This document shows positions 115-15,376 of a DNA stretch of 40,946 nt, piece after piece (within the stretch, counting starts at the first letter, position 1; the number at the start of each line of letters is the position of its first letter). The position numbers and the translations under genes were made by a program. Origin of the DNA: Enterococcus phage vB_EfaS_785CS. The DNA lies in the sequence record MZ182246.1; one strand, 5' to 3'. The notes under the pieces were generated by a model. The model saw only the letters and a program-made list of their open reading frames with translations. It searched no databases and was not told the DNA's origin.

Positions 115-498
115 TCACCCCTTGCGGTTGCGGAAGCTGGCTGAATGCTCTTCTTTATTGTGACACTCTTGACAGATGCTTTCTAGGTTATCTATATCCA
201 ACCTATGTTCCCAACCCATTGTGGTCCGTACCTCTTGCCTATGATGCACTATGGTTGCTATGCTTGCATTACATACTTCACACATTGGATTCATTGATAG
301 CTTTCTTGCTCTAACGTTTCGCCACTGTGTTGATGCATAGAAGTCCGCATACTTCTTGTTATCTGGTGAATGTCTTACTTGCTTGTTGTATGTCTTTGCT
401 TGTTGTCCTCTGTGTTGTTCACAGTATACTTCTGGTATGTCTACATACTCCCTGCAGTGTGCAACCTTACACCGTCGCTTAGGCATTAGAAGCCCCAC
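115..498 (-). CDS. HNH endonuclease, zinc-finger type (terminase-associated gp74-like)
   Basis: 127 aa ORF with paired Cys motifs (CxxC, CEVCN, CQEC) and an HH/N/H arrangement typical of HNH nucleases. It lies next to the putative cos region, across the window junction from the terS/terL genes. Confidence 0.7.
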   Translation of the reverse strand: MGLLMPKRRCKVAHCREYVDIPEVYCEQHRGQQAKTYNKQVRHSPDNKKYADFYASTQWRNVRARKLSMNPMCEVCNASIATIVHHRQEVRTTMGWEHRLDIDNLESICQECHNKEEHSASFRNRKG

Positions 499-689
499 AT
501 ATCTTTGTTAGTATTACTATTAAAGATGTCATAAGATACTTTCTTATTCGTTGTTGGTTCTGTTGTTGGTTGTTCTGTTGTGTCTGATGTGTTGGTAACC
601 ATTGCTTGCTCTAGCTCTCTGATGTATGATACTAAGTCTAGCTTAGTATGTGATAGTAGTTGCTTGTCTGTCATGCCCTCCATGGTCAT
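486..689 (-). CDS. hypothetical protein
   Basis: 67 aa ORF collinear with and upstream (minus sense) of the HNH gene, overlapping it by 13 nt. No recognisable motif. Confidence 0.4.
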   Translation of the reverse strand: MTMEGMTDKQLLSHTKLDLVSYIRELEQAMVTNTSDTTEQPTTEPTTNKKVSYDIFNSNTNKDMWGF

Positions 690-769
690 ATATGATACCC
701 TCCTGTTTATATTAGTAAGGGTACAGTATTAAACTATACCCTCCATTTTTTATTACATATGGTGGTTAC

Positions 770-961
770 TTATTTGTTGTAGCCCTCTAGTGTGGACTTC
801 ATACCTGTTAGTAGCATACGTCCAAATACATTCCATAAGATATAGACAATAGCTAAACCAGTGTTACCTGATGTCCACAATACATAGGGTAGATACACAT
901 ACATTAGTCCTGCCATTCCTACTGTAAATACTAAGATGATTAGTGCTACTACTAATTGCAT
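770..961 (-). CDS. small membrane protein (2 predicted TM helices)
   Basis: 63 aa, strongly hydrophobic. AGGAGGA lies 8 nt upstream of the ATG on the minus strand (forward tcctcct at about 971-977). Confidence 0.5.
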   Translation of the reverse strand: MQLVVALIILVFTVGMAGLMYVYLPYVLWTSGNTGLAIVYILWNVFGRMLLTGMKSTLEGYNK

Positions 962-1010
962 TCCTTTATTAATAATTGATTCCTCCTATTTGTTTTTGCT
1001 TTACTTCTAT

Positions 1011-1039
1011 ATTATAGCATACTTATTTGTAGTTTAGGG
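1011..1039 (-). promoter_or_regulatory. candidate leftward promoter with extended -10 (TGcTATAAT) and a weak -35
   Basis: The minus-strand sequence reads ...ccctaaactacaaataagtaTGCTATAAT... upstream of the RBS of the 770-961 ORF. Confidence 0.3.
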
Positions 1040-1116
1040 AATAGATTAACCATTAATTTTAATCTACTATTTTTATTAAATAACAAACCATTGTTGTACT
1101 TTTACTCTTGTTTAAC

Positions 1117-1520
1117 TTGAAGTGTAACGCTTTGTAACACTTAGTATTTTCAACTAAAACATAGTGATACCAATTGATACAGATTGTAGAAACCAATAAG
1201 TGTAACACTTATGTAACGCTTATACATAACCATGTTGGTCTAAGTGTTACACCTATAAACGTTGATAAACCAATGTTTATACTATGTTATCTTATAAGTG
1301 TAACACTTGTAACGCTTTAAAACAACTCTATAGAGATATAATTAATAAAAATAATATAATATATAGGTGTGGGGTATAGAACTTGAAAAAAAGCGTTACA
1401 AGCGTTACAAGTGTTACACTTGGTTTGAAACGTTGATATATCAATGTTTATATAGGTTTTTTTCGTAACACTTAAGCGTTACAAAGCGTTACAATAAGTG
1501 TTACAAAGCGTTACATTAAA
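1117..1520. repeat. iteron array of about 16 copies of GTAAC(G/A)CTT / AAG(C/T)GTTAC, plus two near-identical palindromes (AACGTTGATA..TATCAATGTT) and an AT-rich stretch; candidate origin or regulatory switch
   Basis: Direct reading of the sequence. Copies sit at 1124-1143, 1202-1222, 1242-1250, 1300-1318, 1391-1417, 1465-1514. Palindromes sit at about 1257-1281 and 1426-1455. An AT-rich block sits at 1320-1380. The region lies between divergent promoters. Confidence 0.8.
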
Positions 1521-1548
1521 CAAATTTCAATAAATTTAAACAAAACTA

Positions 1549-1580
1549 TTGACAAATTACCCAACATGGTTTAATATAAT
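1549..1580 (+). promoter_or_regulatory. early rightward promoter (TTGACA-N17-TAATAT)
   Basis: ttgaca at 1549-1554, a 17-nt spacer, taatat/tataat at 1572-1580. It sits directly upstream of the first rightward gene. Confidence 0.5.
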
Positions 1581-1623
1581 AAATGTACCACACAACAAAC
1601 AAAACATTTAGGAGGAAACAAAC

Positions 1624-1827
1624 ATGATTAAATTATTAAACGAAAGAGAAGCAGCATTAATTTACGAACAAAAGGAAGCTTGCGAACGACTATCAGCAGA
1701 ACTATGTAATGCACAAGTAGACCAATCAATTGTGGCAAACATTACACAACGTATTCAACGTATCAGTGGACGTATTACAGAAGTACAAAGCATGAAACGC
1801 TATTATAAAAATAGAGAGGTAAAGTAA
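1624..1827 (+). CDS. hypothetical protein
   Basis: ORF with an aggagga RBS 8 nt upstream. Confidence 0.6.
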   Translation: MIKLLNEREAALIYEQKEACERLSAELCNAQVDQSIVANITQRIQRISGRITEVQSMKRYYKNREVK

Positions 1828-1829
1828 TA

Positions 1830-2042
1830 ATGCAATACACATGGACGGAAAAAGGAACATGCTTCAAAAACAATGACTATCAGTTTACTATGTACAAACT
1901 AGTGGACTATGACGCGGTAGTGGTTAGGTGTACGTATGGTTCATATGTAACTAGACTTATATTCTCACCAGATGAAGAAAGATTTATTTACGAATCACTT
2001 GACGAAATGAAAGAACTACTATATAATAAGTCATATATTTAA
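1830..2042 (+). CDS. hypothetical protein
   Basis: ORF tightly packed after the previous gene (taataATG). Confidence 0.55.
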   Translation: MQYTWTEKGTCFKNNDYQFTMYKLVDYDAVVVRCTYGSYVTRLIFSPDEERFIYESLDEMKELLYNKSYI

Positions 2043-2054
2043 GGAGGAAACAAC

Positions 2055-2276
2055 ATGAAATTAAGAGAAATGATTAACATTATCAACAATGACCTAACAA
2101 TCACACTGGTTTTTCAAGACAGAACACCATTACGTTTTGAATATGAAGCACGTGGACGATACATTGAATATGGACCAGCATATAAAACATTAGTCAAATA
2201 TCTTGACAATGAAGTCATTGGGATGTATATTATAGACAACAAACATATTAAACTACTAATTAAGGAGGAAGCATAA
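2055..2276 (+). CDS. hypothetical protein
   Basis: aaggaggaaacaacATG RBS. Confidence 0.6.
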   Translation: MKLREMINIINNDLTITLVFQDRTPLRFEYEARGRYIEYGPAYKTLVKYLDNEVIGMYIIDNKHIKLLIKEEA

Positions 2277-2669
2277 ATGAAATACACAATGAAATGCACA
2301 AAAGCAGACCCACAAGAACCATTTTTCACAGAAGGTAAAGAATATGACATTATTAAAAATGCGGGTGGCTATGCTATTATTGACAATGATGGTGAAGTAC
2401 CAGAATATGCACCAAACCTATTTAACTTAGAAAAAACCCTAAATGAATTTTGGGATTCAAAATTTAAGCTGGTTAATATTGATGAACAAACTACGATTAG
2501 AGGTGTATTCAAACGAACACTTGTTCAATACAATAAGGATATTGCATATCTTGAAAATTCTATAAGACGAAACAAAAGTAATATATCAGAAGCACAACTG
2601 GCAGTAATAAAAGTACAACGTGAAGCAATCCAAGAATTATACAATGAAGTATTTAAGGAGGAAGAATAA
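2277..2669 (+). CDS. hypothetical protein
   Basis: 130 aa ORF with an aaggagga RBS. Confidence 0.6.
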   Translation: MKYTMKCTKADPQEPFFTEGKEYDIIKNAGGYAIIDNDGEVPEYAPNLFNLEKTLNEFWDSKFKLVNIDEQTTIRGVFKRTLVQYNKDIAYLENSIRRNKSNISEAQLAVIKVQREAIQELYNEVFKEEE

Positions 2670-2881
2670 TGATTAAATTAGGATTATTATTACAACATAT
2701 TGAATTTGGGCGCACTGTTGTATTAGTAGAACACATGACAGAAAAAGATATTGTAACATTCACATTGACAGAAGAACTAGAATATACCAAAGAATATGAA
2801 AAAGTTGAACCACACCTAGGACGTGAGATAATGAATATTTCAACAACACCAGTTGGTGGACTATATATTGAAATTCTTTAA
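2669..2881 (+). CDS. hypothetical protein
   Basis: aaggaggaagaataATG, overlapping the stop of the previous gene. Confidence 0.55.
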   Translation: MIKLGLLLQHIEFGRTVVLVEHMTEKDIVTFTLTEELEYTKEYEKVEPHLGREIMNISTTPVGGLYIEIL

Positions 2882-2900
2882 AACTTTTTGAACAAAAGTG

Positions 2901-2929
2901 TTGACACCTACTATACCATGTGATATAGT
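2901..2929 (+). promoter_or_regulatory. sigma70-like promoter (TTGACA-N17-TATAGT) embedded in a palindrome
   Basis: ttgaca at 2901-2906, tatagt at 2924-2929. The spacer and -10 form the inverted repeat cacctactata / tatagtaggtg. Confidence 0.5.
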
Positions 2930-2958
2930 AGGTGTATAAGATAAAGGAGGAAAACAAA

Positions 2959-3036
2959 ATGGCACTATTTGGTTTAGTATTTGTAACAATTGGAATCTGG
3001 GGAACTTACAACATTATCAAGTATATTGAGGATTAG
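2959..3036 (+). CDS. small hydrophobic peptide (25 aa)
   Basis: aaaggaggaaaacaaaATG RBS. The peptide is MALFGLVFVTIGIWGTYNIIKYIED. It is below the ORF-track length cutoff. Confidence 0.3.
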   Translation: MALFGLVFVTIGIWGTYNIIKYIED

Positions 3037-3050
3037 GAGGTACAATAAAG

Positions 3051-3245
3051 ATGAGTAAGCTAAAAACATTTAAAGTAACATATGGAAATATAGAAAACAA
3101 GGTACAGCGTGCATATCTTAAAGCATATCACTATAATGAAGCGTTACGCAGAGCTAAGCGTATAAATGGTTTATATTGTATTATAAAATTGGAGGAAGTA
3201 GATAATGCCAGTAAAAACGAACTATTATATTTGTTTAACAAATAA
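3051..3245 (+). CDS. hypothetical protein
   Basis: ggaggtacaataaagATG RBS. Confidence 0.55.
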   Translation: MSKLKTFKVTYGNIENKVQRAYLKAYHYNEALRRAKRINGLYCIIKLEEVDNASKNELLYLFNK

Positions 3246-3429
3246 TGAACTATTCAGCTTATACACAGAAGAACCAATACTTGTAATGTATGAACAAGCG
3301 GTTGAAAATGATGAAAAATTATTGAAATTGGAAAAAGCAGAAGCAATTGAAATTGATGGTGAAATGCAATACACATTTATCACCATTCCATTAGATTCAA
3401 TATTATATGTATTGGAGGACGCAAAATGA
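3205..3429 (+). CDS. hypothetical protein
   Basis: ggagga at 3191-3196, 8 nt before the ATG at 3205. It overlaps the 3' end of the previous ORF in another frame. Confidence 0.5.
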   Translation: MPVKTNYYICLTNNELFSLYTEEPILVMYEQAVENDEKLLKLEKAEAIEIDGEMQYTFITIPLDSILYVLEDAK

Positions 3430-3584
3430 TTAAATTATTAAAAGCAATCGCATTCGCACTATTGGTAACATTAGGAATCGCACTACCACTAGCGTTTGTA
3501 TTTATTATCTATATGTCATATGTAACTGCTGGCTGGGCTGGTATTTGGTTAATGTTAATTGTTCTATATATTATGATTAAATAG
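3426..3584 (+). CDS. small membrane protein (52 aa)
   Basis: ggaggacgcaaaATG RBS, hydrophobic throughout. It is not in the ORF track because it is shorter than 60 aa. Confidence 0.4.
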   Translation: MIKLLKAIAFALLVTLGIALPLAFVFIIYMSYVTAGWAGIWLMLIVLYIMIK

Positions 3585-3595
3585 GAGGAATAGTA

Positions 3596-3817
3596 ATGAA
3601 GAAAGATGTAGGTACGTTTTGGAAATTTGAAAATGATTCATGGTACTTCTTTATTATTGGTAGTTTTGAAGATGAAGTTAGTGTATGTGCAATTGACACT
3701 TCAAACAATCAAATTAGTTTTATGATGATGAACCACGAACAAACAATTGACTTTATACCAAGTGATAATTTTGAAATGAATAACTACCTGATTGAGGTGA
3801 TGGGAAAATATGAGTGA
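3596..3817 (+). CDS. hypothetical protein
   Basis: taggaggaatagtaATG RBS. Confidence 0.55.
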   Translation: MKKDVGTFWKFENDSWYFFIIGSFEDEVSVCAIDTSNNQISFMMMNHEQTIDFIPSDNFEMNNYLIEVMGKYE

Positions 3818-4028
3818 TTCAGTGAAGGTTATTGGCTCAATTTGGGCTTCAACTGATGGTCTAAATATTTACAGAATTGACCAGATAGACACACGTGGTT
3901 ATTTTATCACATTGTTAGATAATGAAATAAACATGGTTTCTAAAGCATGGATACACAAGCAAGCTACAATGTGTGACACAAAAGCAACCAAAGCACAGAA
4001 ACAACAATTTAAGGAGGAAGCAAAATGA
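3810..4028 (+). CDS. hypothetical protein
   Basis: Translationally coupled ORF. Confidence 0.5.
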   Translation: MSDSVKVIGSIWASTDGLNIYRIDQIDTRGYFITLLDNEINMVSKAWIHKQATMCDTKATKAQKQQFKEEAK

Positions 4029-4222
4029 GTAAATTAGATGCATTATTAGTGGCACTTGTATTGGTAGGGACAGCAAGTGGAATAGTGATTTCAGCAATGA
4101 TTGTAATTTCAGTTCTAATGGTATTGAAGCCAATTACATGGGTTGTACTTGGATTAGGTGCATTACTAACTATCATGATTGGTATTGGTATATACCTATT
4201 TGAGAAACATTATCTAAATTAA
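4025..4222 (+). CDS. small membrane protein (2 TM)
   Basis: aaggaggaagcaaaATG RBS, hydrophobic 65 aa. Confidence 0.55.
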   Translation: MSKLDALLVALVLVGTASGIVISAMIVISVLMVLKPITWVVLGLGALLTIMIGIGIYLFEKHYLN

Positions 4223-4238
4223 ATATGTTATGATAAGG

Positions 4239-4287
4239 GAGAAAGTTAAATAAAACAGTTGACTTTCTCTTTTTTACATGGTATATT
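4239..4287 (+). promoter_or_regulatory. terminator hairpin (gagaaagt..actttctc + T7) overlapping a promoter (TTGACT-N17-TGgTATATT)
   Basis: Stem at 4239-4246 and 4262-4269 followed by a T-run at 4270-4276. ttgact at 4259-4264, tatatt at 4282-4287. Confidence 0.5.
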
Positions 4288-4316
4288 AATGTCATAAGAT
4301 ATTAGGAGGAATAATA

Positions 4317-4871
4317 ATGGTAAATGAATTACAAAAAGTTGAATATGACCAACCAGTTGAATTAAGCTTTATCAGCACGCTTGAAAAGACTTTGACACCA
4401 AGTAAGCAATATATCAAAGCATTGAAGGACTACGAAAAGGACCACAAAGAGTGGGAAGTGGACTTCAAAAATGGAGATGTGGCTAAGAATGCAGAACCAC
4501 AACGACCAGAACCAACATATGATGGCTTAAACGCAGAAGCCTTAGCTGTTCACATGGCTAAGGTGTTGCCAGTACACGCAAGTTCTACAATTGGTTTACC
4601 AGTGGTTTATAATCATGACACACAAATTTATGAGGTGTCAGAGGATAATTTAGAAGCCCGTTTATGGCAAAAGCTTTATAATGAGTTTATGATGGTATAC
4701 ACACCACATTATGCAGAAAATGCAAAGGTTGCTAACCAATTTAGAAATGCAGTCCAAAGAATGGCAAAAAATGCGCTTGCTTCTGGTGCTAACTTACCAT
4801 TAATGACAAAATGGACCCAAATAAGATTGCATTTAAAAATGGGACATATCGCTTTAAAGAGGACACATTAA
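4317..4871 (+). CDS. N-terminal portion of a P4/D5-type primase-helicase protein (reading frame a)
   Basis: Strong RBS (attaggaggaataataATG). It ends in a frame that overlaps the next ORF by 60 nt. Confidence 0.5.
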   Translation: MVNELQKVEYDQPVELSFISTLEKTLTPSKQYIKALKDYEKDHKEWEVDFKNGDVAKNAEPQRPEPTYDGLNAEALAVHMAKVLPVHASSTIGLPVVYNHDTQIYEVSEDNLEARLWQKLYNEFMMVYTPHYAENAKVANQFRNAVQRMAKNALASGANLPLMTKWTQIRLHLKMGHIALKRTH

Positions 4872-5902
4872 AACCAACGGTAAAAGAGGACTACCAAACA
4901 ACAAGAATTGAATATGATTATATTGATAATCCTAAACACAATATCGTTGCTGAATGGATTGAGTACATTTTAGAAGAGGACGCAAAAACACTATTTCAAT
5001 TGATTGGACGTATTTTCTACCGCAACCAAGACCCACAAGCAATGGTATTTGCAACTGGTGAAGGTAGTAACGGTAAATCGCATGTAATGAGCTTCATTGA
5101 GGACCTAGTAGGTAAATCAAATACAAGTCATGCAACACTAGCCAGCTTATCAGGTAATAATGACAAATTCGCAAGCTCTCAATTATTTGGTAAAATGGTA
5201 AATATTGAAACTGATATGCCAGCGCAACACATTAAGCAAACAGGTACACTGAAAACATTGTCAGGTAATGACGTAATGAGTGCAGAGTATAAAGGTATTA
5301 ACAAGTTCACATTTACGAACTACGCACTAATGATTTTCACAACTAATAACATGCCTACTTTTTCAGATACTTCACATGGTTTCTTGCGCCGTATTATCAC
5401 GCTTCCATTTAACAAGACCATGGGAAGAGATAACCCAACAGATTCAATGTGGCTAGAACGTTCAAAGAATTTCACATATGAAGAAAAGTCAGAGTTTATC
5501 AGCTACTGTCTGCAACAATATAGAAATGTATTGTTTGGGCTAAATGGAGAAACAAAAGGGCAGTTCTGGACCAGTGATAATGCAAATAAATTACGTGACG
5601 CATTTATCCAAGGAAATGACACAATGGCTAACTTTATTGAATTGAATGAACTTGAATTTACAAACAATATTGATGATGTAATTCCAAATACAGAATTATT
5701 AGAAGCATATAACACTATGTTACGTGAAGAGAATCTAATGGAAGTATCAGCCAAGAAGTTCATTCCAGAATTGAAACGTAAAGCACAATCAGAAAACATT
5801 ATTCTTAGTGTAATTACTAAGCGTGTTGATGGAAGAGTACAACGTTGTACAACTAACGTGAGATGGAAAACCAATACCTCTGAAACAGATAATATTTTTT
5901 AA
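4811..5902 (+). CDS. phage/plasmid primase P4-family C-terminal (D5-like) P-loop NTPase domain protein (reading frame b)
   Basis: IAFKNGTY...FATGEGSNGKSHVMSFIE (Walker A GxGxNGKS), DTD/TGTLKTLSGNDVMSAEYKG and FLRRIITLPF blocks are typical of primase_Cterm/D5 N-terminal plus P-loop proteins. There is no RBS before the ATG at 4811. Confidence 0.7.
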   Translation: MDPNKIAFKNGTYRFKEDTLKPTVKEDYQTTRIEYDYIDNPKHNIVAEWIEYILEEDAKTLFQLIGRIFYRNQDPQAMVFATGEGSNGKSHVMSFIEDLVGKSNTSHATLASLSGNNDKFASSQLFGKMVNIETDMPAQHIKQTGTLKTLSGNDVMSAEYKGINKFTFTNYALMIFTTNNMPTFSDTSHGFLRRIITLPFNKTMGRDNPTDSMWLERSKNFTYEEKSEFISYCLQQYRNVLFGLNGETKGQFWTSDNANKLRDAFIQGNDTMANFIELNELEFTNNIDDVIPNTELLEAYNTMLREENLMEVSAKKFIPELKRKAQSENIILSVITKRVDGRVQRCTTNVRWKTNTSETDNIF

Positions 5903-5911
5903 AATAATTTA

Positions 5912-5960
5912 AAGAAAGTTGACTAAAACAGTTGACTTTCTTTTTTTCGCATGGTATACT
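5912..5960 (+). promoter_or_regulatory. terminator hairpin (aagaaagt..actttctt + T-run) overlapping a promoter (TTGACT-N17-TATACT)
   Basis: Stem at 5912-5919 and 5935-5942, T-run at 5943-5947. ttgact at 5932-5937, tatact at 5955-5960. Confidence 0.5.
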
Positions 5961-5991
5961 TAGTTCATAAGTTAAGAGGAGGAATTAAACA

Positions 5992-6180
5992 ATGACAACT
6001 AAAGAAAAATACGAAAACAAATTACAAAAATTAAACGAAAGATATGACGAGTTAAAAGCGCAAATGATTGAAGCATACGACAACGGAAACAAAGAACTAG
6101 GACATGAACTAAACGATAGACTAGAAAACATGTTAGATGTGATTTTACTAACTGAAACAGTATTAGAAAACTTAAAATAA
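5992..6180 (+). CDS. hypothetical protein (coiled-coil)
   Basis: agaggaggaattaaacaATG RBS. Confidence 0.55.
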   Translation: MTTKEKYENKLQKLNERYDELKAQMIEAYDNGNKELGHELNDRLENMLDVILLTETVLENLK

Positions 6181-6194
6181 AATCAGAAAAGGGG

Positions 6195-6223
6195 TTGACA
6201 AGTTCAGCCCCAACTGATATACT
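6195..6223 (+). promoter_or_regulatory. promoter TTGACA-N17-TATACT
   Basis: ttgaca at 6195-6200 and tatact at 6218-6223, inside a gggg..cccc hairpin. Confidence 0.45.
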
Positions 6224-6252
6224 TAATTCATAAATTAAAAGGAGGATATGAG

Positions 6253-6714
6253 ATGGACTTTCAAATTGGAACAGTAAAGAAAACACAAGGACAAGTAAAG
6301 AAACACATTACGCAATGTACTCCACAAGAGAAAGAACAACTAAACAAAGCAAAAGACAGAGTGAAAGACTTGTGGTTAAAGCGTGGTATAAAAACAGGGT
6401 ATCACTTACAAGATAAAATAAGAAACGGTGAAACTAAATTTTCATATCTGCGAGCAATGGAAGCAATGATACATGGTGAAATTATTGAATATAACGAAAC
6501 AGGTGCAGATAAACGTGTTTTGATTCGTTCAGGAATTGGGTATGTAGGTGAATCTATTGATGATATAGTAGTACAATGTATAGTGGTTTCTCTATTTAGC
6601 GGTAAAGTAATTACAAGCTACTTAAACAAAGCAAGTGATAGACATAAGACACTTGACCCAAGGCGATATAATAAAAATTTAAAAATTAATTTACCAAAAC
6701 ACTTGACAAAATAA
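6253..6714 (+). CDS. hypothetical protein
   Basis: 153 aa ORF with an aaaaggaggatatgagATG RBS. Confidence 0.55.
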   Translation: MDFQIGTVKKTQGQVKKHITQCTPQEKEQLNKAKDRVKDLWLKRGIKTGYHLQDKIRNGETKFSYLRAMEAMIHGEIIEYNETGADKRVLIRSGIGYVGESIDDIVVQCIVVSLFSGKVITSYLNKASDRHKTLDPRRYNKNLKINLPKHLTK

Positions 6715-6762
6715 AAACAATCATTTATACTAAGTATATAATCAATTAGGAGGAATAAATAA

Positions 6763-7035
6763 ATGAAACATAAAGGATTAATCATTGGATTGGCAGTAGG
6801 ATTGAGTTTTTCAGGAAGTACAGCAATGTTGGCAAACAACTTAAACAAGCAGAAATTGAATGAAGCTAAACAGGAATTACACTTATACAAAGAATTGAAT
6901 GAACGTCAACAAGATATTATTTTAGAGTATAAAGTAGTATCAGGAATTGAAGTATCAAGTATCACAAAAACATTAGACAATAAAGAGTTAATCAAAGAAT
7001 TAGAAAAACGAATTAACAAATTGGAGGATAAATAA
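6763..7035 (+). CDS. membrane-anchored coiled-coil protein
   Basis: N-terminal hydrophobic segment followed by a K/E-rich coiled coil. aggaggaataaataaATG RBS. Confidence 0.55.
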   Translation: MKHKGLIIGLAVGLSFSGSTAMLANNLNKQKLNEAKQELHLYKELNERQQDIILEYKVVSGIEVSSITKTLDNKELIKELEKRINKLEDK

Positions 7036-7036
7036 A

Positions 7037-7198
7037 ATGAATGAAAATATGGAAGTTTTAACGGCAATTTTAGTGGCAAATTTAGTAGGTATTTTAACAA
7101 TTGTATTCACAACGTCAACTGACGCTGGTTTAGTATCTTGGTTAGTATCATTCGCATTAACATTCTTAGCAATTCAAACATTTACGGAGGTTGAATAA
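7037..7198 (+). CDS. small membrane protein (53 aa)
   Basis: ggagga at 7024-7029, 7 nt before the ATG. Two hydrophobic helices. It is not in the ORF track. Confidence 0.4.
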   Translation: MNENMEVLTAILVANLVGILTIVFTTSTDAGLVSWLVSFALTFLAIQTFTEVE

Positions 7199-7199
7199 C

Positions 7200-7409
7200 A
7201 TGAATTTATTACAAGCGTATGAAGTGGTTGACAGTCATTTTTTAGTAGTGAAAGAATCAAACGGTATGACTGCATTAGTAATTGATACAACAAGTGATAA
7301 GTCAGTGGCACGATTATTTAATAAATATAATGAGTTGACAAAGGTATTAAATATCAGTTACAATGAATCATGGGGCGGAATTGAATTAGTAATTGGAGAG
7401 GAAGAATAA
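7200..7409 (+). CDS. hypothetical protein
   Basis: ggagg at 7186-7190, 9 nt before the ATG at 7200. The track's start at 7191 is an upstream TTG. Confidence 0.5.
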   Translation: MNLLQAYEVVDSHFLVVKESNGMTALVIDTTSDKSVARLFNKYNELTKVLNISYNESWGGIELVIGEEE

Positions 7410-7412
7410 AAA

Positions 7413-7637
7413 ATGACAAACTTAGAACTTATTGAGAAACTAGACAAAGACACGTACAACATGACACAGGACTTTTTGAAAAAAGGTGTAACACAACATG
7501 AAATTGATTTATATGTTACAAAAGGTGTTACAATGTATTTAATGCTATTGAAAGAATATGGAGAAAACATTGACAAACACATTGAAAAAGGTAAAAATAC
7601 AATGGAACGACTAGAAGTTACAGGAGGTACTTTATAA
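7413..7637 (+). CDS. hypothetical protein
   Basis: ggagaggaagaataaaaaATG. Confidence 0.5.
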   Translation: MTNLELIEKLDKDTYNMTQDFLKKGVTQHEIDLYVTKGVTMYLMLLKEYGENIDKHIEKGKNTMERLEVTGGTL

Positions 7638-7828
7638 TGAAAACAGAACGTAATATTGCAATTGACAATATTTTGAATGAACTGGAAAATGATTTCAGAA
7701 GTAAAGGTGTTTCACAAGATGACATAGAAAAGTATGCAACATACACAGTATTAGCAATGTTAGGTGTATTTTCTCAAAATAATATTGATGTAGAAAAAGC
7801 CATTGAAGTATTGACAAATATGTTATAA
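7637..7828 (+). CDS. hypothetical protein
   Basis: Coupled ORF (ggaggtactttataATG). Confidence 0.5.
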   Translation: MKTERNIAIDNILNELENDFRSKGVSQDDIEKYATYTVLAMLGVFSQNNIDVEKAIEVLTNML

Positions 7829-7841
7829 GGTAATAAAAAAG

Positions 7842-8228
7842 GTGGTTCAAACCATGGGAAGAGAAGCTAACTTTAGTAGAGAAGTTGTAAAGTATTTGAA
7901 GAGTAGAGGTGCATTAGTAAACGTCAATACAGCAAACATATACGACCGCGTTGGTAGAAGTGACATTGAAGCATGCTACAGAGGGTATTGGATTAGTTTA
8001 GAATTAAAGGTAGGTAACTACCAACCAGACCAATTACAAATTAGATACTTGCAGGAGGTTAGAACGGCTGGTGGATATGGCATATTATTAAGAGATACAC
8101 TAGATGATTTAGAGGACCTATTACTTCACTTAGACCAGATGGATAATGGTGTGGAATATCCATACACATATGAACAACCAGATTTGCCAGAAATAAATTA
8201 TGAGGAGTTGAATATTGAATATGACTGA
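7842..8228 (+). CDS. VRR-NUC-like (PD-(D/E)xK) nuclease
   Basis: The block D..EACYRGYWISLELKVGNYQPDQLQIRYLQEVRTAGGYGILL resembles the VRR-NUC core (D..E.K plus Q motif). Confidence 0.45.
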   Translation: MVQTMGREANFSREVVKYLKSRGALVNVNTANIYDRVGRSDIEACYRGYWISLELKVGNYQPDQLQIRYLQEVRTAGGYGILLRDTLDDLEDLLLHLDQMDNGVEYPYTYEQPDLPEINYEELNIEYD

Positions 8229-8238
8229 AGAAAAGTAA

Positions 8239-8394
8239 GTGAAAGTTATAGATATTGCAACAGGTGAGTGTAATGTTTATGATTCAATAACGGAATGTGA
8301 AAGACAGACAGGAGTTAATAGAGGAACTATTTGGAATTGTCTAAAAGGTAGACGAAAACAAGCAGGAGGGTACGTATTCAAATATGCAAACTAA
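8239..8394 (+). pseudogene. decayed C-terminal remnant of a NUMOD4/HNH_3 homing endonuclease
   Basis: Open frame with no start codon. It translates to VKVIDIATGECNVYDSITECERQTGVNRGTIWNCLKGRRKQAGGYVFKYAN, which matches the C-terminal DNA-binding tail of the intact HNH genes at 19804-20334 and 39943-40455 (…IKAIDI.NGE.NEY.S..ECAR.L.L…I..CL.G.R...GGY.F.Y). Confidence 0.55.
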
Positions 8395-9682
8395 AATAGG
8401 AGAGGTAGAACTTCTACCTCATCAAATAGAAGCAATTAAATTATCTGATAAAAAGAATTTTGACCTATCATCTGCCGGAACTGGTAAGACTTTTTCAGCA
8501 CTTGGTGCTTACTTGAAAAGTGGTTGTACTAAATTACTAGTGGTTTGCTTAGCACCAAAAGTACAAGATTTTGCAGAAGACGGAGCATTAATGAATCTTA
8601 ACATTACGCCTTTAAATAATGGTACAAAGAAAAATAAAGAATTATTAGCCAGTTCAACCAGAGTAGCAATCAGTTTTGAGAGTAGTTGGCGTTTAACAGA
8701 ACTGGTAAAATGGGTTGATAAAGATACCTATATATTAATTGACGAAAGTCATAAAGTAGGAGTGAGTACCTCAAAAGTAACAAAATTTATGATGAGTTTA
8801 TGTAAAAAGACAACTCATGTTAGACTATTAACTGCAACACCTATCAGCAATGGCAAATTAGAGAACTATTATAGTCAGCTTTATATGTTAAACGTATTTC
8901 GCAAGCCTAAAAAAGAATTTGAGCAACTATTTGTTATTAAGCAAATGCGTCAGATGGGGTCACTAAGGTTTATGGATACGGTGGGTTATCAGAATGAACA
9001 TTTATTACAACAAATGATTGATGAATGTTCTGTAAAATTCAAACGTGACAAGCCATATCTTCCAGAAGACTATTACTACAAGACAAAAAAACCCGCAATG
9101 TATGCTAAATTGAAAAAGAACCGCATGTACAAAACCGATAGTGGTGAAGTGATTGAACTAGATAATAGTAGTAAACTATTTAACGCAATGCGCTGCGTGT
9201 CACATGGTTTCTTATTAGGAATCAATAAACAGGTAAGCAAAGAACCATTTGAACGCTTACAAGCTATTTTAGAAACACACAACAATGAACGAGTAGTTAT
9301 CTTTTACAACTACAATGTAGAGCTTGAAATGCTGAAACAATTACTAAGTAAGTTAAAACGCCCTACAAGCGAATATAATGGCACTAGAAAGGATTTAAAA
9401 GAGTTCAAAGGTAAATCTAACGCAGTAGTCCTAGCGCATTATAAGTCAGCTTCTACGGGCATAAATGACTTCGTCATAGCGAATATTATGGTGTTTAACA
9501 GTTTACCATTAAGTTCAGTTGAATTAATACAAGCTAAAGCACGTATAGACAGACATGGTCAAACAGAGAAACCCATTTACTATTTCATTGTTCCAGACAC
9601 ACCAGTAGAGAAAAAGATTTTTGAAACAGTAACAAATGGTCAAGACTTTACTAATGAAATGATGGAGGATATATTAAAATGA
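8384..9682 (+). CDS. SNF2/DEAD-like superfamily-2 DNA helicase
   Basis: Walker A SAGTGKT, DESH box (ILIDESHK), LLTATPISN, and the C-terminal helicase motifs STGINDF and ARIDRHGQ. Confidence 0.75.
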   Translation: MQTKIGEVELLPHQIEAIKLSDKKNFDLSSAGTGKTFSALGAYLKSGCTKLLVVCLAPKVQDFAEDGALMNLNITPLNNGTKKNKELLASSTRVAISFESSWRLTELVKWVDKDTYILIDESHKVGVSTSKVTKFMMSLCKKTTHVRLLTATPISNGKLENYYSQLYMLNVFRKPKKEFEQLFVIKQMRQMGSLRFMDTVGYQNEHLLQQMIDECSVKFKRDKPYLPEDYYYKTKKPAMYAKLKKNRMYKTDSGEVIELDNSSKLFNAMRCVSHGFLLGINKQVSKEPFERLQAILETHNNERVVIFYNYNVELEMLKQLLSKLKRPTSEYNGTRKDLKEFKGKSNAVVLAHYKSASTGINDFVIANIMVFNSLPLSSVELIQAKARIDRHGQTEKPIYYFIVPDTPVEKKIFETVTNGQDFTNEMMEDILK

Positions 9683-9855
9683 ATGAATTAAAATAAGTAA
9701 ACGTGAACTTTATGACTGGTAAAGATAATAGAAATTACTTAATTTCTAATGTTAAATATGTAAATATCACAGATGATTATTTAGAAATTAGTTTTGGTGA
9801 TTCAGAAATATTCGTATTAAAATTAGAGAACTTAGTGTTTTATTCAATTAAATAG

Positions 9856-9884
9856 TTGACAACTACTATACTACATGGTATAGT
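9856..9884 (+). promoter_or_regulatory. promoter TTGACA-N17-TGgTATAGT within a palindrome
   Basis: ttgaca at 9856-9861, tatagt at 9879-9884. Inverted repeat actactatac / gtatagtagg. Confidence 0.5.
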
Positions 9885-9917
9885 AGGTACATAAGATAAA
9901 GAGAGGAAGTTATAACA

Positions 9918-10115
9918 ATGTTTACAAATGAAGATAAATTACAAGAATGGTACAAACACACATATACAGACTATATTAAAAGCTGGTTCTGTCTATTATT
10001 AATCATGTTTCTAGGAGCTTGCTTTATATTCAAATTTATTGACACTACAGACACTTGGGGCGCGGAAGAGATTGACCACAATGGTCAAGTAGTAACTATC
10101 AGTAAAGACTTTTAA
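9918..10115 (+). CDS. small membrane protein
   Basis: One TM segment (WFCLLLIMFLGACFIF). Confidence 0.5.
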   Translation: MFTNEDKLQEWYKHTYTDYIKSWFCLLLIMFLGACFIFKFIDTTDTWGAEEIDHNGQVVTISKDF

Positions 10116-10128
10116 GGAGGAAATTAAG

Positions 10129-10317
10129 ATGTATATTGTAAATATTATTGATTTTGAAACCATGGTACTAGCTTACCAATCAGAGGTATTCACTACCAAA
10201 GAGTTAGCAGAAGATTATATGGGAGAAGTGATGGAGAATACACATGGACTTGATGGACTAATTATTGAAGTAAGTAGCACTAATTTAGAAACAGCTAAGA
10301 TTGTAGCACATTCATAG
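10129..10317 (+). CDS. hypothetical protein
   Basis: aaggaggaaattaagATG. Confidence 0.5.
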   Translation: MYIVNIIDFETMVLAYQSEVFTTKELAEDYMGEVMENTHGLDGLIIEVSSTNLETAKIVAHS

Positions 10318-10329
10318 GAGGAATAAATA

Positions 10330-11073
10330 ATGGAATTATTAAGACTTAAAAAGAATGGGAAAGCACCGTTAGTTGCTGGTTCATTTAATGGTGAAGATAA
10401 AGCAGAAGTTAAGAAGTGGGTTGCAGAAGGATACAACTATGGGATTCTCACAGGTAAGATTTCAGGTATTGCAGTAATTGATATTGATACTCACAACGGG
10501 GTTAGTGGTGCTGATAACCTCAAAGAGTTTTGCGAAAAGTATGATATTGAGTTACCAGACACTAAAACAGTTATGACACCAAGTGGTGGGCTTCATCTGT
10601 ATTACAACCTACCTGAAAAATATAATGATGTGCAATTCATTCAGAACCACAAGGAACTTGAAGGTGTTGACTTCCAAACACATGGACGCTACATTGTTGG
10701 GTGGGGTTCAACTATTGATGGTGTAAAATATGAAGTGATTGACAATTCACCAATTGCAGACCTACCTGTAAAATGGTTTGATATTTTCACAGATAAAACA
10801 ATTCAGAAAAAGAATAAAAAACGCCAAAGACTTTGGACTGCAAATTTATTAGGTGATATAATTGCGGGCTGTGATGAAGGAGGAAGAAATAACTGGATAA
10901 CCAAAATAATTGGTAAGTTGTTTGCCACTGGTTTAGAAAATGAAGAAATTTGGGTGTGGGCACAATATGTAAACCAAATTGGGTGCAACCCACCACTTGA
11001 CGGAACAGAGTTGAAACGCACCTATGATTCAGTTAAAAAACGAGAAGAACGGAGAATGGCAAAAGATGAATAA
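10330..11073 (+). CDS. bifunctional DNA primase/polymerase (Prim-Pol) N-terminal domain protein
   Basis: GILTGKISGIAVIDIDTHNG...TPSGGLHLYY matches the Prim-Pol catalytic core (DxD and SGG.H). Confidence 0.7.
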   Translation: MELLRLKKNGKAPLVAGSFNGEDKAEVKKWVAEGYNYGILTGKISGIAVIDIDTHNGVSGADNLKEFCEKYDIELPDTKTVMTPSGGLHLYYNLPEKYNDVQFIQNHKELEGVDFQTHGRYIVGWGSTIDGVKYEVIDNSPIADLPVKWFDIFTDKTIQKKNKKRQRLWTANLLGDIIAGCDEGGRNNWITKIIGKLFATGLENEEIWVWAQYVNQIGCNPPLDGTELKRTYDSVKKREERRMAKDE

Positions 11074-11275
11074 CATGCATATGTTTAGAAAATTGTTCCC
11101 AAACGGTTGGGTTGTTGATGTAAAGCACAACCCAGATGGATTTGGTGAGATGTATACTACAAACTACCCCTATTCAGTAATTACCTACAAACGTGACACT
11201 GGTTTCACGAAATTCGTAAACATTGAAAAACCAAGTGAAGTATTCCAATACATTGCAGAAGTACAAAAATGGTAA
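11066..11275 (+). CDS. hypothetical protein
   Basis: Start chosen at the ATG at 11066 (ggaga 10 nt upstream) rather than the track's 11024. Confidence 0.45.
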   Translation: MNNMHMFRKLFPNGWVVDVKHNPDGFGEMYTTNYPYSVITYKRDTGFTKFVNIEKPSEVFQYIAEVQKW

Positions 11276-11378
11276 ACAAAAAAAAAAGCCAACTCATAAG
11301 AGTTGACCTAAGATAGTTGAAGGTGGGAGGAATCACCTTTGCTATAAATATATTATAACATAAAATTAAAGTTTTGTG

Positions 11379-11407
11379 TTGACAAATAAACGTCAATATG
11401 ATAGAAT
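11379..11407 (+). promoter_or_regulatory. promoter TTGACA-N17-TGaTAGAAT
   Basis: ttgaca at 11379-11384, tagaat at 11402-11407. Confidence 0.45.
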
Positions 11408-11437
11408 AATATTATAAAACATTAGGAGGAATTAATT

Positions 11438-11944
11438 ATGAAAGTACAAGATGGAATGGTAGTAAAACGCAAAGACAACGGTTTAAAAGGTGTAGCACAT
11501 AAACTTCAAGGTGGTATGTTGAAAGTCAAATATCATGACGGAACACACACATATACTACAGAGAGTGCTTTTAAAAACCATTTTGTTATTCCTGAATTAG
11601 AAGTTAATTTTGAAGATTCAAAATGTGATGGTGTTGAACCTGAACAAGAAAAAAGTATGACATATGATGAGTACTTATACATGTCAGGTGGTGTTGAACC
11701 TGATGTAGAAGTTTATTTTGAATCAGATTTGATTGACAATCAAATTCATTACACAGTTAACGGTATTCAACCAATTCAAATAATGAAAGCTAACATGACA
11801 AAAGAAGAATTCCGTGGTTTCCTAGAAGGAAATATTCTAAAATACCCACTACGTTATAAACACAAAAATGGACTAGAGGACCTTAAAAAAGCAAAAACTT
11901 ACCTAACTTGGCTGATTGAAGATATTGAAGAAAGAGGGTTGTAA
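11438..11944 (+). CDS. hypothetical protein (C-terminus reminiscent of DUF3310/T7 gp1.7-like proteins)
   Basis: ttaggaggaattaattATG RBS. The C-terminal KYPLRYKHKNGLEDLKKAKTYLTWLIE block is reminiscent of DUF3310. Low certainty. Confidence 0.5.
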   Translation: MKVQDGMVVKRKDNGLKGVAHKLQGGMLKVKYHDGTHTYTTESAFKNHFVIPELEVNFEDSKCDGVEPEQEKSMTYDEYLYMSGGVEPDVEVYFESDLIDNQIHYTVNGIQPIQIMKANMTKEEFRGFLEGNILKYPLRYKHKNGLEDLKKAKTYLTWLIEDIEERGL

Positions 11945-12147
11945 TATGGAAAATGTGAGAGTGATTAATATACCATTGGAAAATATAAAACTATACATGT
12001 ACTATGTAATTTAAACAATGCTGATTATTTGGAGGTAACAAAATACCCAGATGGTGATATAGTGGTAAGTATGGATACTAATATCCCAGAAGGTGATATT
12101 ATTTTAACCATTGAGCAATTAGAAAAATTAGTAGAGGAGTTAAAGGA

Positions 12148-12627
12148 ATGATTGAAAAATTTGAACCATTGTTTGAACCGTACGACCGTTACGCAGTTTC
12201 AAACATGGGATATGTAATAGACCGTGACACTGGTTTAACGGTCTGGAACTCATATGAGGATAACGGCAAACCATACGTAGTCTTAGAAGGCTCACACAAT
12301 AAGACACGTAAGTTTTTTATTGCTAACTTAGTAGCTGAATCATTCGTACTAAATAAAGACAATCTAGGCTACCTATATTATAAAGATGGTGATGTTAACA
12401 ACACACACTGCAACAACCTTGGGTGGGCTATTAACCCACAAGAAGGCAAACAACGTGTTGCACGTCCACTGCGCAAAAAAGTAGAGGATAAACGTCATAA
12501 ATTAATTATTGAAATTAATAAAGCGATTGACAAGGATAAGTGGGATACTGCTAAACGACTTGGTAAAGAACTTTGGGAATTAGAGGGCTTTAGTTGGGAA
12601 GGGAGGAATACACCAGCTCAATATTAG
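12148..12627 (+). CDS. HNH/NUMOD-like homing endonuclease, possibly degenerate
   Basis: YAVSNMGYVID, ...FFIANLVAESFV... and VNNTHCNNLGW resemble the HNH_3 layout but with substitutions at catalytic positions. It lies in tandem with an intact HNH gene. Confidence 0.45.
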   Translation: MIEKFEPLFEPYDRYAVSNMGYVIDRDTGLTVWNSYEDNGKPYVVLEGSHNKTRKFFIANLVAESFVLNKDNLGYLYYKDGDVNNTHCNNLGWAINPQEGKQRVARPLRKKVEDKRHKLIIEINKAIDKDKWDTAKRLGKELWELEGFSWEGRNTPAQY

Positions 12628-12639
12628 GAGGGATATATT

Positions 12640-13927: not shown

Positions 13928-14053
13928 CACAAACAGACTTTCTGAACATTATTGACATGATGAATAGTTACATTATTAAAGTTGGTTATGATAATGTAGG
14001 TGAACCATTTAAAGAAACAATCAAAAAGATTATTGAAGCGGAGGAAAATTTTT

Positions 14054-14236
14054 ATGAATAATGAACAAATGAGTTATAAAATGTTACTAATGTTAGACTA
14101 TGGTTTTACTGTAAATGACCTACTAAACACATTAGAGGAACGAACGGACCTAATTAAAATGGGGTTCACATTTAACGAGATTTTCAAAGCTAAGTGGTTA
14201 CGATTAAAGGCGGAGGACGAACGCAATGGAATTTGA
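14054..14236 (+). CDS. hypothetical protein
   Basis: ggagga at 14041-14046, 7 nt before the ATG at 14054. Confidence 0.45.
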   Translation: MNNEQMSYKMLLMLDYGFTVNDLLNTLEERTDLIKMGFTFNEIFKAKWLRLKAEDERNGI

Positions 14237-15299: not shown

Positions 15300-15309
15300 G
15301 GTTGCACAA

Positions 15310-15338
15310 ATTAGGGAAAGTATGTTATACTATTTAAG
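15310..15338 (+). promoter_or_regulatory. promoter TTGCAC-N17-TGtTATACT
   Basis: Read directly from the sequence. Confidence 0.35.
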
Positions 15339-15376
15339 TAGTAAAAAATAAAACAAATTATTGGAGGAATTTTATT

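What the first reader, a model, noticed from the sequence alone, without database searches (positions are those of the whole stretch)
1117..1520. Dense iteron array of about 16 GTAAC-core 9-mers plus two 25-nt palindromes and an AT-rich block between divergent promoters; candidate replication origin or early genetic switch
The units GTAACGCTT, GTAACACTT and their complements AAGCGTTAC, AAGTGTTAC recur in both orientations. They often appear as adjacent pairs with 10 to 12 nt phasing, about one helical turn. Two near-identical palindromes (aaacgttgata[aac/tat]caatgtttata at about 1257-1281 and about 1426-1455) and an AT-rich stretch (1320-1380) lie within the array. The whole region sits between a leftward promoter (about 1011-1039) and the first rightward early promoter (1549-1580). 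This is the classic architecture of iteron-type origins and of operator arrays. No repressor gene is evident, so an origin bound by one of the replication proteins (Prim-Pol, D5-like ATPase) is the favoured reading.
Basis: partly seen in the sequence, partly recalled or inferred. Interest (0 to 1): 0.6.

Follow-up and report, generated by a model that had tools for sequence, protein, structure and literature searches.

The report
Phage replication origin with iterons
The repeat-dense stretch is very probably the replication origin of a lytic Enterococcus phage, where the phage's own helicase docks on 15 short repeats flanking the easiest-to-melt DNA in the genome; this kind of origin is known, and one was recently predicted in a relative.

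Summary
TGTAACRCTT occurs 15 times in window 1124-1514 and only twice in the other 40.5 kb (about 1.1 expected). Left-half copies mostly point right and right-half copies left. They flank a 90% A+T block (1316-1365), the least stable 50-bp duplex in the genome.

The window is a complete Efquatrovirus genome (Enterococcus faecalis siphophage, AL3/LY0322 group). The array lies between the divergent late and early promoters.

Relatives keep the same intergenic frame, but the repeat sequence changes by class: GTAACRCTT, GTTATGCTT, GTKVCACTT or GTTCTY. A scan of all 89 ORFs found one protein segment that tracks the repeat class. It is the C-terminal predicted winged-helix domain of the D5-like helicase (4317-5902).

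That protein is a homologue of the SaPI5 PriRep5 self-loading helicase, by sequence (E 7e-62) and by predicted fold. SaPI Rep helicases bind inverted iterons around an A+T-rich centre.

Best reading: a SaPI-type origin recognised by the phage's own helicase (confidence about 0.8, not tested experimentally). A 2026 paper predicted the same architecture in the relative Abitsa, so this is a new member of a known kind. What this analysis adds is the repeat/domain co-variation across at least four classes.

The parts
1124..1142 (+). Outer left iteron pair (GTAACGCTT, GTAACACTT); with 1120-1123 it forms a 13-nt palindrome
   Evidence: perfect inverted partner at 1495-1515 (I4)
1202..1221 (+). Left iteron pair (GTAACACTT, GTAACGCTT), 11-nt spacing
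1242..1250 (-). Single iteron in reverse orientation
1257..1281 (.). 25-nt element P1 containing AAACGTTGATA. This is the class-independent conserved origin element; its binder is unknown
   Evidence: D5. It is the only part of the array that BLAST finds conserved in phages of other iteron classes. The 11-mer is present in all 14 arrays examined. All exact copies in the window lie here or in P2
1300..1317 (+). Inner left iteron pair abutting the A+T-rich block and pointing toward it
   Evidence: 22-nt perfect inverted repeat with 1400-1421 (I3)
1316..1390 (.). A+T-rich centre, the proposed DNA-unwinding element. Window 1316-1365 is 90% A+T
   Evidence: Least stable 50-bp duplex in the whole genome. 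Contains a promoter-like TAGAGA-18-TATAAT at 1331-1360
1391..1417 (-). Inner right iteron triplet (9-nt tandem), pointing toward the A+T-rich block
1428..1452 (.). 25-nt palindrome P2 (AAACGTTGATA-TAT-CAATGTTT)
1465..1514 (-). Outer right cluster: one + copy (1465-1473) and four - copies (1474, 1484, 1496, 1506)
1011..1019 (-). Extended -10 (TGCTATAAT) of the leftward (late-operon) promoter
   Evidence: Read from the sequence. The flank is conserved in all relatives regardless of iteron class
1549..1577 (+). First rightward early promoter, TTGACA-17-TAATAT
   Evidence: conserved in all relatives
4317..5902 (+). D5-like / SaPI-Rep-like SF3 helicase gene, the proposed initiator. In this window it is split into ORFs 4317-4871 and 4811-5902 by a 1-nt deletion at about 4800
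   Evidence: Pfam D5_N and DUF5906; profile match to PriRep5 7OLA, E 7e-62; Foldseek top hit 7OLA; indel shown
5621..5866 (+). Predicted C-terminal winged-helix domain (ORF residues about 271-352: recognition helix 314-327, wing strands 334-339 and 342-348). Proposed iteron reader
   Evidence: AF2 model, local pLDDT 82-93. The only segment that segregates with iteron class. Class-specific residues sit in the helix end and the wing

Best explanation
Window 1117-1520 is the origin of replication of this Efquatrovirus phage, built like the origins of staphylococcal pathogenicity islands (SaPIs).

Fifteen copies of TGTAACRCTT are arranged as two opposed sets around an extremely A+T-rich centre. 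They are the docking sites for the C-terminal winged-helix domain of the phage's own D5-like SF3 helicase (4317-5902).

By analogy with SaPI Rep, helicase hexamers would assemble on the inner iteron groups on each side (1300-1317 and 1391-1417). They would then melt the 1316-1390 block and load themselves for bidirectional unwinding. The separate Prim-Pol (10330-11073) and the phage DNA polymerase would then take over.

Shown here:
- the repeats, their enrichment and their orientation;
- the thermodynamic minimum at the centre;
- homology of the helicase to SaPI5 PriRep5;
- exclusive co-variation of the helicase C-terminal domain with the repeat sequence across relatives.

Inferred:
- physical binding of the domain to the repeats;
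- melting of the centre and initiation at this site;
- the roles of the outer iteron clusters and of the two AAACGTTGATA palindromes. The palindromes are conserved across all classes and so are probably read by a conserved phage or host factor.
For: 1. Enrichment and architecture. Fifteen of 17 genomic sites fall within 391 bp, against 1.1 expected. The sets are opposed and have perfect 21- and 22-nt inverted arms. The centre is the least stable 50-mer of the genome.

2. The same intergenic frame exists in relatives, with conserved promoters and palindrome, but the repeat differs by class:
- GTAACRCTT, 11-15 copies: window, LY0322, EFRM31, Ef6.4, G01;
- GTTATGCTT, 9 copies: IME_EF3;
- GTKVCACTT, 10 copies: heks, VEsP-2;
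- GTTCTY, 8-12 copies: SHEF2, AUEF3, LY0323, EF-M80, IME-EF4, KEN02.

3. Each class has its own helicase C-terminal sequence.

4. A 25-aa sliding scan of all 89 ORFs against 8 complete genomes gives one outlier: residues 333-357 of ORF 4811-5902. Same-class minimum identity is 0.96 and other-class maximum is 0.40. The next best difference is 0.08. An earlier scan of the early ORFs (window 115-13158) with 10 genomes agreed.

5. Natural recombinant. EF-M80 is window-like through helicase residue about 440 and in the small early proteins. It switches to the other C-terminal type and carries the matching GTTCTY repeats.

6. The IME_EF3 array is collinear with class-A arrays, yet GTAAC became GTTAT at nearly every site on both strands. 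Substitutions number 22 of 99 iteron columns against 41 of 391 elsewhere, p = 0.004. Four of its 7 C-terminal changes lie in wing strand 333-339.

7. Predictions made from the C-terminal search were then confirmed by inspection. Ef6.4 and G01 have class-A repeats. KEN02 does not, although its small early proteins are 99-100% identical to the window's.

8. The 19 database records with a C-terminal domain at least 99% identical all appear among the records found to carry class-A arrays. Sixteen of them match the window's array closely; EFRM31 (two records) and Ef6.4 were confirmed by inspection. One of the 17 close array matches counted was not identified, so the overlap is not proven complete.

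9. The helicase family profile hits SaPI5 PriRep5 at E 7e-62. The AF2 model's best fold matches are 7OLA chains A-C, the chains with the C-terminal domain built, over about 340 columns.

10. SaPI Reps recognise iterons through a C-terminal winged helix, with half the iterons on each side of an A+T-rich centre and in opposite orientation (PMC9371898).

11. A 2026 paper independently predicted seven 10-bp iterons around an A+T-rich region at this locus in the Efquatrovirus Abitsa (PMC13517437).

12. Cumulative GC skew turns near position 1000.
Against: - There is no experimental evidence for binding or initiation in any Efquatrovirus.
- The GC-skew turn coincides with the switch of transcription direction, so it is not independent evidence.
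- The array sits about 2.8 kb upstream of the helicase gene and between promoters, whereas SaPI origins lie immediately downstream of rep.
- IME-EF4 and KEN02 carry the GTTCTY-type C-terminal domain and 8 GTTCTY sites. They also carry a second, more prominent repeat (AAAAGTGTAGAC, 7-8 copies) that the one-domain, one-iteron model does not explain.
- heks and VEsP-2 share an identical C-terminal domain but differ at iteron positions 3-4, so recognition is not strictly one-to-one.
- In some GTTCTY-class phages the central block is less A+T-rich.
- Related phages are not independent samples. The co-variation rests on a handful of recombination or divergence events.
Confidence: 0.8

Rival explanations
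1. The array is an operator array for a dedicated small transcription factor that times the divergent early and late promoters (a genetic switch), and is not an origin.
For: The array lies exactly between the leftward extended -10 promoter and the rightward early promoter. Its outer clusters end about 35 bp from the early -35 element. A 73-aa PHROG 'transcriptional regulator' is encoded at 3596-3817.
Against: That regulator, the 63-aa protein (7637-7828) and the 153-aa protein (6253-6714) are all 98-100% identical in phages with different repeats (EF-M80, KEN02, LY0323, IME-EF4). G01 has class-A repeats but lacks the regulator. No small protein segregates with repeat class in the proteome-wide scan. 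No HTH or repressor family is found in the flanking genes. A 90% A+T centre flanked by opposed repeats is origin-like rather than operator-like.
Confidence: 0.05
2. Dual function. The array is the origin, and helicase occupancy of the outer clusters also modulates the two flanking promoters. Alternatively, transcription from them activates the origin, as described for lambda and lactococcal phage c2 (from my own knowledge of those systems).
For: There are 15 sites here, against the 6-12 shorter (5-6 bp) iterons quoted for SaPI origins (PMC9371898). Outer clusters at 1124-1142 and 1465-1514 lie next to the promoters. A promoter-like site sits inside the A+T block. The position between divergent promoters is conserved in all 14 relatives examined.
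Against: This is purely positional. No transcript or binding data exist. The number and placement of outer clusters vary between relatives (11 sites in Ef6.4-type arrays), which argues against tight promoter coupling.
Confidence: 0.25
3. The array is a packaging-recognition site (small terminase) or a partition/centromere-like site.
For: Repeat arrays near a genome end can be terminase recognition sites. The array is about 1.1 kb from the window's left end.
Against: Three genes separate it from the end. The small terminase ORF shows no segregation with repeat class. No partition genes are annotated in this lytic phage group.
Confidence: 0.02

Closest known systems
SaPI origins with Rep / PriRep self-loading helicases (Staphylococcus aureus pathogenicity islands; PMC9371898)
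   Same: The initiator is an SF3/D5-like helicase with a C-terminal winged helix. Short iterons are split into two oppositely oriented sets around an A+T-rich centre. Specificity is cognate between the helicase's C-terminal domain and the repeat. The window's helicase is a true homologue (E 7e-62; best fold match 7OLA).
   Different: The host element is a lytic phage, not a satellite. Iterons are 9-10 bp rather than 5-6 bp, and there are 15 rather than 6-12. The origin is not immediately downstream of rep: it lies about 2.8 kb upstream of the gene, between divergent promoters. There are extra class-independent palindromes. The primase is a separate Prim-Pol gene.
Predicted origin of Efquatrovirus phage Abitsa (Viruses 2026, 18:842; PMC13517437)
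   Same: Same genus, same locus, same reasoning (a PriRep5-like helicase, and iterons around an A+T-rich region). Also a prediction only.
   Different: The paper reports seven 10-bp repeats. It gives no analysis of repeat classes or of co-variation with the helicase C-terminal domain. The window's array is about twice as large.
Phage P4 alpha protein with ori/crr (from my own knowledge, not checked in papers here)
   Same: A D5-family primase-helicase whose C-terminal winged-helix domain binds short origin iterons.
   Different: P4 needs a second iteron cluster (crr) several kb away. This window has no second cluster, only two isolated sites elsewhere. P4 alpha carries its own primase domain.
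Iteron plasmids (RepA/Rep_3-type, e.g. pPS10, F, P1; review PMC4980987 listed, content from my own knowledge)
   Same: Repeated initiator-binding sites next to an A+T-rich unwinding element.
   Different: Plasmid iterons are longer (about 17-22 bp), directly repeated on one side of the A+T-rich region, and bound by a WH1-WH2 Rep that recruits the host helicase.

Membership tests
SaPI-type Rep/iteron origin | The initiator is an SF3 (D5-like) helicase homologous to SaPI Rep/PriRep | tested here: met
   Pfam D5_N and DUF5906. Family profile against PDB: 7OLA (PriRep5), E 7.1e-62, covering profile positions 239-604. Foldseek top hits are 7OLA/7OM0, TM(query) 0.66-0.68.
SaPI-type Rep/iteron origin | C-terminal winged-helix domain on the helicase | tested here: met
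   The AF2 model shows helix-helix-wing topology at residues 293-352 with block pLDDT 82-93. The alignment to 7OLA is 60-80 columns longer for chains A-C, in which the C-terminal domain was built. This rests on a predicted structure only.
SaPI-type Rep/iteron origin | Short iterons in two sets of opposite orientation, at least two on each side of an A+T-rich centre | tested here: met
   Two + copies at 1300-1317 and three - copies at 1391-1417 flank the 90% A+T block. Overall 6 of 7 left copies are + and 7 of 8 right copies are -.
SaPI-type Rep/iteron origin | Cognate specificity between the helicase C-terminal domain and the iteron sequence | tested here: met
   Tested by co-variation only. 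Four C-terminal domain types pair with four repeat types in 13 phages (AUEF3's C-terminal sequence was not extracted). This domain is the only segregating segment in the proteome. EF-M80 is a recombinant that fits the rule, and IME_EF3 shows concerted iteron change.
SaPI-type Rep/iteron origin | Origin located immediately downstream of the rep ORF | tested here: not met
   The array ends at 1514 and the helicase gene starts at 4317, with about 14 small genes between them. This feature is typical of SaPIs rather than mechanistically required.
SaPI-type Rep/iteron origin | ATP-independent origin binding and melting; replication starts there | not testable with these tools
   Needs EMSA or footprinting, permanganate probing, and marker-frequency or 2D-gel mapping.
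P4 alpha / ori-crr system | A second cis-acting iteron cluster (crr) distant from ori | tested here: not met
   Only two isolated GTAACRCTT sites lie outside the array (3139 and 25971), consistent with chance.
Iteron plasmid origin (Rep_3/RepA type) | Long direct repeats on one side of the A+T-rich region | tested here: not met
   The repeats are 9-10 bp, on both sides and in opposed orientation.
CI/Cro-type operator switch | A repressor/antirepressor pair encoded next to the operators, with specificity that follows the operators | tested here: not met
   The flanking genes have no HTH or repressor family hits. The only annotated regulator (3596-3817) does not follow repeat class.

The most novel reading that the evidence does not exclude
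Within this one genus the origin and its reader have diversified into at least four specificity classes. This happened by coupled changes in the helicase's winged-helix wing and in every iteron, and the pair is exchanged between phages by recombination (EF-M80). If the classes are functionally exclusive, they would act as replicon incompatibility groups. They could let co-infecting phages avoid competing for each other's initiator, or let phages escape origin-decoy defences or satellites. The IME_EF3 versus class-A pair would then offer a minimal natural recoding experiment: about 4 wing residues against GTAAC to GTTAT.
Probability: 0.35. Interest if true: 0.6.

Novelty: new member of a known kind. 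Interest (0 to 1): 0.4.

Why it matters
Efquatroviruses are among the most commonly isolated candidate therapeutic phages for Enterococcus faecalis, yet their origin has only been predicted once, in a relative.

Fixing the origin and naming its reader gives a concrete handle for engineering: minimal replicons, and origin-decoy plasmids that should block phages class-specifically.

The natural series of repeat/winged-helix pairs is a ready-made data set for working out how SF3 self-loading helicases read DNA. Beyond that, the finding is ordinary. It extends a known origin type from satellites to a lytic phage genus.

Tried and rejected
- 153-aa protein 6253-6714 (phrog_1905). In the first four-genome table it looked like the co-varying partner. 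It was rejected because LY0323 (GTGTTCTC repeats) and IME-EF4 carry it at 99-100% identity.

- 73-aa 'transcriptional regulator' 3596-3817 and 63-aa protein 7637-7828. Both fitted six genomes. Both were rejected because EF-M80 and KEN02 carry them at 98.6-100% identity with other repeat classes, and G01 lacks the regulator.

Its identity pattern does not follow repeat class: LY0322 76%, heks 95%.

No segregation in the proteome-wide scan.

- A structured RNA in the region. Rfam gives only a sub-threshold miRNA match (21 bits against a gathering score of 119, E 0.29).

- GC skew as independent origin evidence. It turns near position 1000 and near 20,300, but both points coincide with the switch of transcription direction, so I did not count it.

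- Ubeda et al. 2007 (PMC1964853) could not be read in the library. Facts about SaPI origins are taken from PMC9371898.

Full report
**What the window is.** The 40,946-bp window is a complete genome of an Enterococcus faecalis siphophage of the genus Efquatrovirus, AL3/LY0322 subgroup. The 900-1700 region is 96-98% identical to VP15, AL3, LY0322 and about a dozen others. The LY0322 annotation gives the gene map. Early and replication genes run rightward from 1624 to 20334. Late genes run leftward from 40455 to 20376, and from 961 to 115 across the genome ends. The finding therefore lies in the 660-bp gap between the two divergent transcription units.

**Checking the observation.**
- GTAACRCTT occurs 17 times in the window, against 1.1 expected from shuffles (maximum 5). 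Fifteen copies lie in 1124-1514.
- A T precedes the 9-mer in 14 of 15 copies, so the unit is TGTAACRCTT. R is G in 8 copies and A in 7.
- The copies form these groups: 1124/1134 (+,+), 1202/1213 (+,+), 1242 (-), 1300/1309 (+,+), 1391/1400/1409 (-,-,-), 1465 (+), and 1474/1484/1496/1506 (-,-,-,-). Spacing within groups is 9-12 nt.
- The two halves mirror each other, with perfect inverted arms at 1296-1317/1400-1421 and 1123-1143/1495-1515.
- Between the inner groups, 1316-1365 is 90% A+T. It is the least stable 50-bp duplex in the whole genome, about 4 sd below the mean.
- The two 25-mers at 1257-1281 and 1428-1452 are 92% identical.
- The rightward promoter at 1549-1577 is called by the scan.
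- The leftward promoter is an extended -10 (TGCTATAAT, + strand 1011-1019) without a -35. I read this from the sequence.
- Rfam finds no RNA family here.

**Relatives carry the same frame with different repeats.** BLAST with the array alone finds 17 near-identical records. In most other Efquatroviruses it finds only a 53-bp piece around the first palindrome. I read the homologous intergenic regions directly. Both promoter flanks and the AAACGTTGATA element are conserved, but the dominant repeat differs:
- GTAACRCTT, 11-15 copies: window, LY0322, EFRM31, Ef6.4, G01.
- GTTATGCTT, 9 copies: IME_EF3.
- GTKVCACTT, 10 copies: heks, VEsP-2.
- GTTCTY (as TGTTCTTCA or GTGTTCTC), 8-12 copies: SHEF2, AUEF3, LY0323, EF-M80, IME-EF4, KEN02.

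This is the pattern expected when a binding protein and its sites evolve together, so I looked for the protein.

A first identity table pointed to a 153-aa protein. Later tables pointed to a 73-aa annotated regulator and a 63-aa protein. All three fail. LY0323 and IME-EF4 have the 153-aa protein at 99-100% identity with other repeats. EF-M80 and KEN02 have the 73-aa and 63-aa proteins at 98.6-100% identity with other repeats.

Aligning the D5-like helicase showed that the classes differ almost only in the last 90 or so residues. It also showed that EF-M80 is window-like up to about residue 440 and then switches to the other type, matching its GTTCTY repeats.

An unbiased 25-aa sliding scan confirmed this. 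Across the early ORFs (window 115-13158) and 10 genomes, the helicase C-terminus was the only segment with a positive separation. Across all 89 ORFs and 8 complete genomes it separates by 0.56 (0.96 against 0.40), while the next best segment reaches 0.08.

A database search with the last 100 aa gave 19 records at 99% identity or more. Sixteen of them are records whose array closely matches the window's. The other three are EFRM31 (two records) and Ef6.4. One of the 17 close array matches counted could not be identified, so I cannot say the two sets are identical.

That search made three predictions, which I then checked:
- Ef6.4 (100% identity) carries class-A repeats.
- G01 (95% identity) carries class-A repeats.
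- KEN02 (other C-terminal type, but window-like small proteins) does not carry class-A repeats.

IME_EF3 (86% identity) is the most telling case. Its array aligns collinearly with the Ef6.4/G01/EFRM31 arrays, but GTAAC has become GTTAT at nearly every site on both strands. Substitutions are enriched in the iterons: 22 of 99 columns against 41 of 391 elsewhere, p = 0.004. Four of its seven changes in the last 45 residues lie in one short strand, S333N, T336N, K337R and V339I.

**What the protein is.**
- Pfam finds D5_N and DUF5906 in the protein.
- A profile of 38 homologues matches the SaPI5 primase-helicase PriRep5 (PDB 7OLA) at E 7e-62.
- The AF2 model has mean pLDDT 78.7, with the C-terminal blocks at 82-93. 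It ends in a helix (314-327) followed by a beta hairpin (334-339 and 342-348) around the invariant G341. This is a winged-helix topology.
- Foldseek ranks 7OLA chains A-C first, over about 340 columns. Those are the chains in which the C-terminal domain was built.
- The class-specific residues lie at the end of the recognition helix and in the wing.

**What is known about the family.** For SaPI Reps, the literature states the following (PMC9371898). The helicase is also the initiator. It recognises penta- or hexanucleotide iterons through a C-terminal winged helix. Six to twelve iterons form the origin, with an A+T-rich centre. At least two iterons on each side point in opposite directions. 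Binding and melting do not need ATP.

A 2026 paper on the Efquatrovirus Abitsa used the same analogy. It reported seven 10-bp iterons around an A+T-rich region at the expected locus, as a prediction only (PMC13517437).

**Mechanism proposed.** Helicase subunits bind the inner iteron groups through their winged helices. They assemble on both sides of 1316-1390, melt it and load themselves, so that replication proceeds in both directions. The separate Prim-Pol (10330-11073) would prime.

Shown: the site architecture, the homology and the co-variation. Inferred: binding, melting and initiation.

**Unexplained.**
- The role of the outer clusters.
- The two palindromes. Their core AAACGTTGATA has all three of its exact (AAACRTTGATA) matches in the window inside the array, and it is present within one mismatch in all 14 arrays whatever the class. 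This suggests a conserved second factor.
- The extra AAAAGTGTAGAC repeat in IME-EF4 and KEN02.

**Differences from SaPIs.** The iterons are longer and more numerous. The origin lies between divergent promoters about 2.8 kb upstream of the helicase gene rather than just downstream of it. The element is a lytic phage.

**Rivals.**
- A dedicated operator array is disfavoured. No small protein follows the repeat class, and the neighbouring genes have no repressor-like families.
- A secondary influence of helicase binding on the flanking promoters, or of transcription on origin firing, remains possible and is untested.
- Packaging or partition roles have no support.

**Verdict.** The kind of origin is known and was recently predicted in a relative. 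What is new is the evidence for cognate repeat/winged-helix classes. Confidence in the origin reading is about 0.8. Interest is moderate.

Noticed in passing
window 4800, 18121, 26072, 28957: Single-base homopolymer indels relative to the 99.7%-identical LY0322 split four large essential genes: the D5-like helicase, the DNA polymerase, Dit and the tape measure protein. So many interrupted essential genes point to sequencing or assembly errors rather than biology.
   Followed up: partly
L010 (IME-EF4) 957-1581; L017 (KEN02) 2122-2748: These origins carry 8 GTTCTY sites and also a second, more prominent repeat, AAAAGTGTAGAC (7-8 copies, both orientations). That repeat resembles the class-A iteron with one inserted G. 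Its reader is unknown, and it does not fit the simple one-domain, one-iteron model.
   Followed up: partly
window 1257-1267, 1428-1449; all 14 related arrays: AAACGTTGATA (within one mismatch) is present in every array regardless of iteron class, and the window's only exact AAACRTTGATA matches lie inside the origin. It probably binds a conserved phage or host factor.
   Followed up: partly
window 1624-2881: The first genes after the early promoter are a hypervariable cassette. ORFs 1624-1827 and 2055-2276 have no counterpart even in phages with 97-99% identical flanks, and no PHROG or Pfam hit. This is typical of early host-takeover or anti-defence genes.
   Followed up: no
window 1331-1360 (+): A promoter-like TAGAGA-18-TATAAT lies inside the A+T-rich centre. 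It could be chance in A+T-rich DNA, or a source of origin transcription.
   Followed up: no
L008 (EFRM31, NC_015270.1): The 16.9-kb 'complete genome' joins the early region directly to the packaging and head genes, with the strand order changed. It looks like a misassembly. The Abitsa paper raises the same doubt.
   Followed up: no
L011 (EF-M80) helicase gene 34134-35721: There is a recombination breakpoint at about residue 440 of the helicase, exactly at the start of the C-terminal domain. The origin region is also of the other class, which suggests the domain and its origin travel together although they lie several kb apart.
   Followed up: yes
window 115-498, 12640-13158, 19804-20334, 39943-40455: There are several HNH-type endonuclease ORFs whose presence and position differ between close relatives. 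They are likely mobile homing endonucleases contributing to the mosaicism.
   Followed up: no
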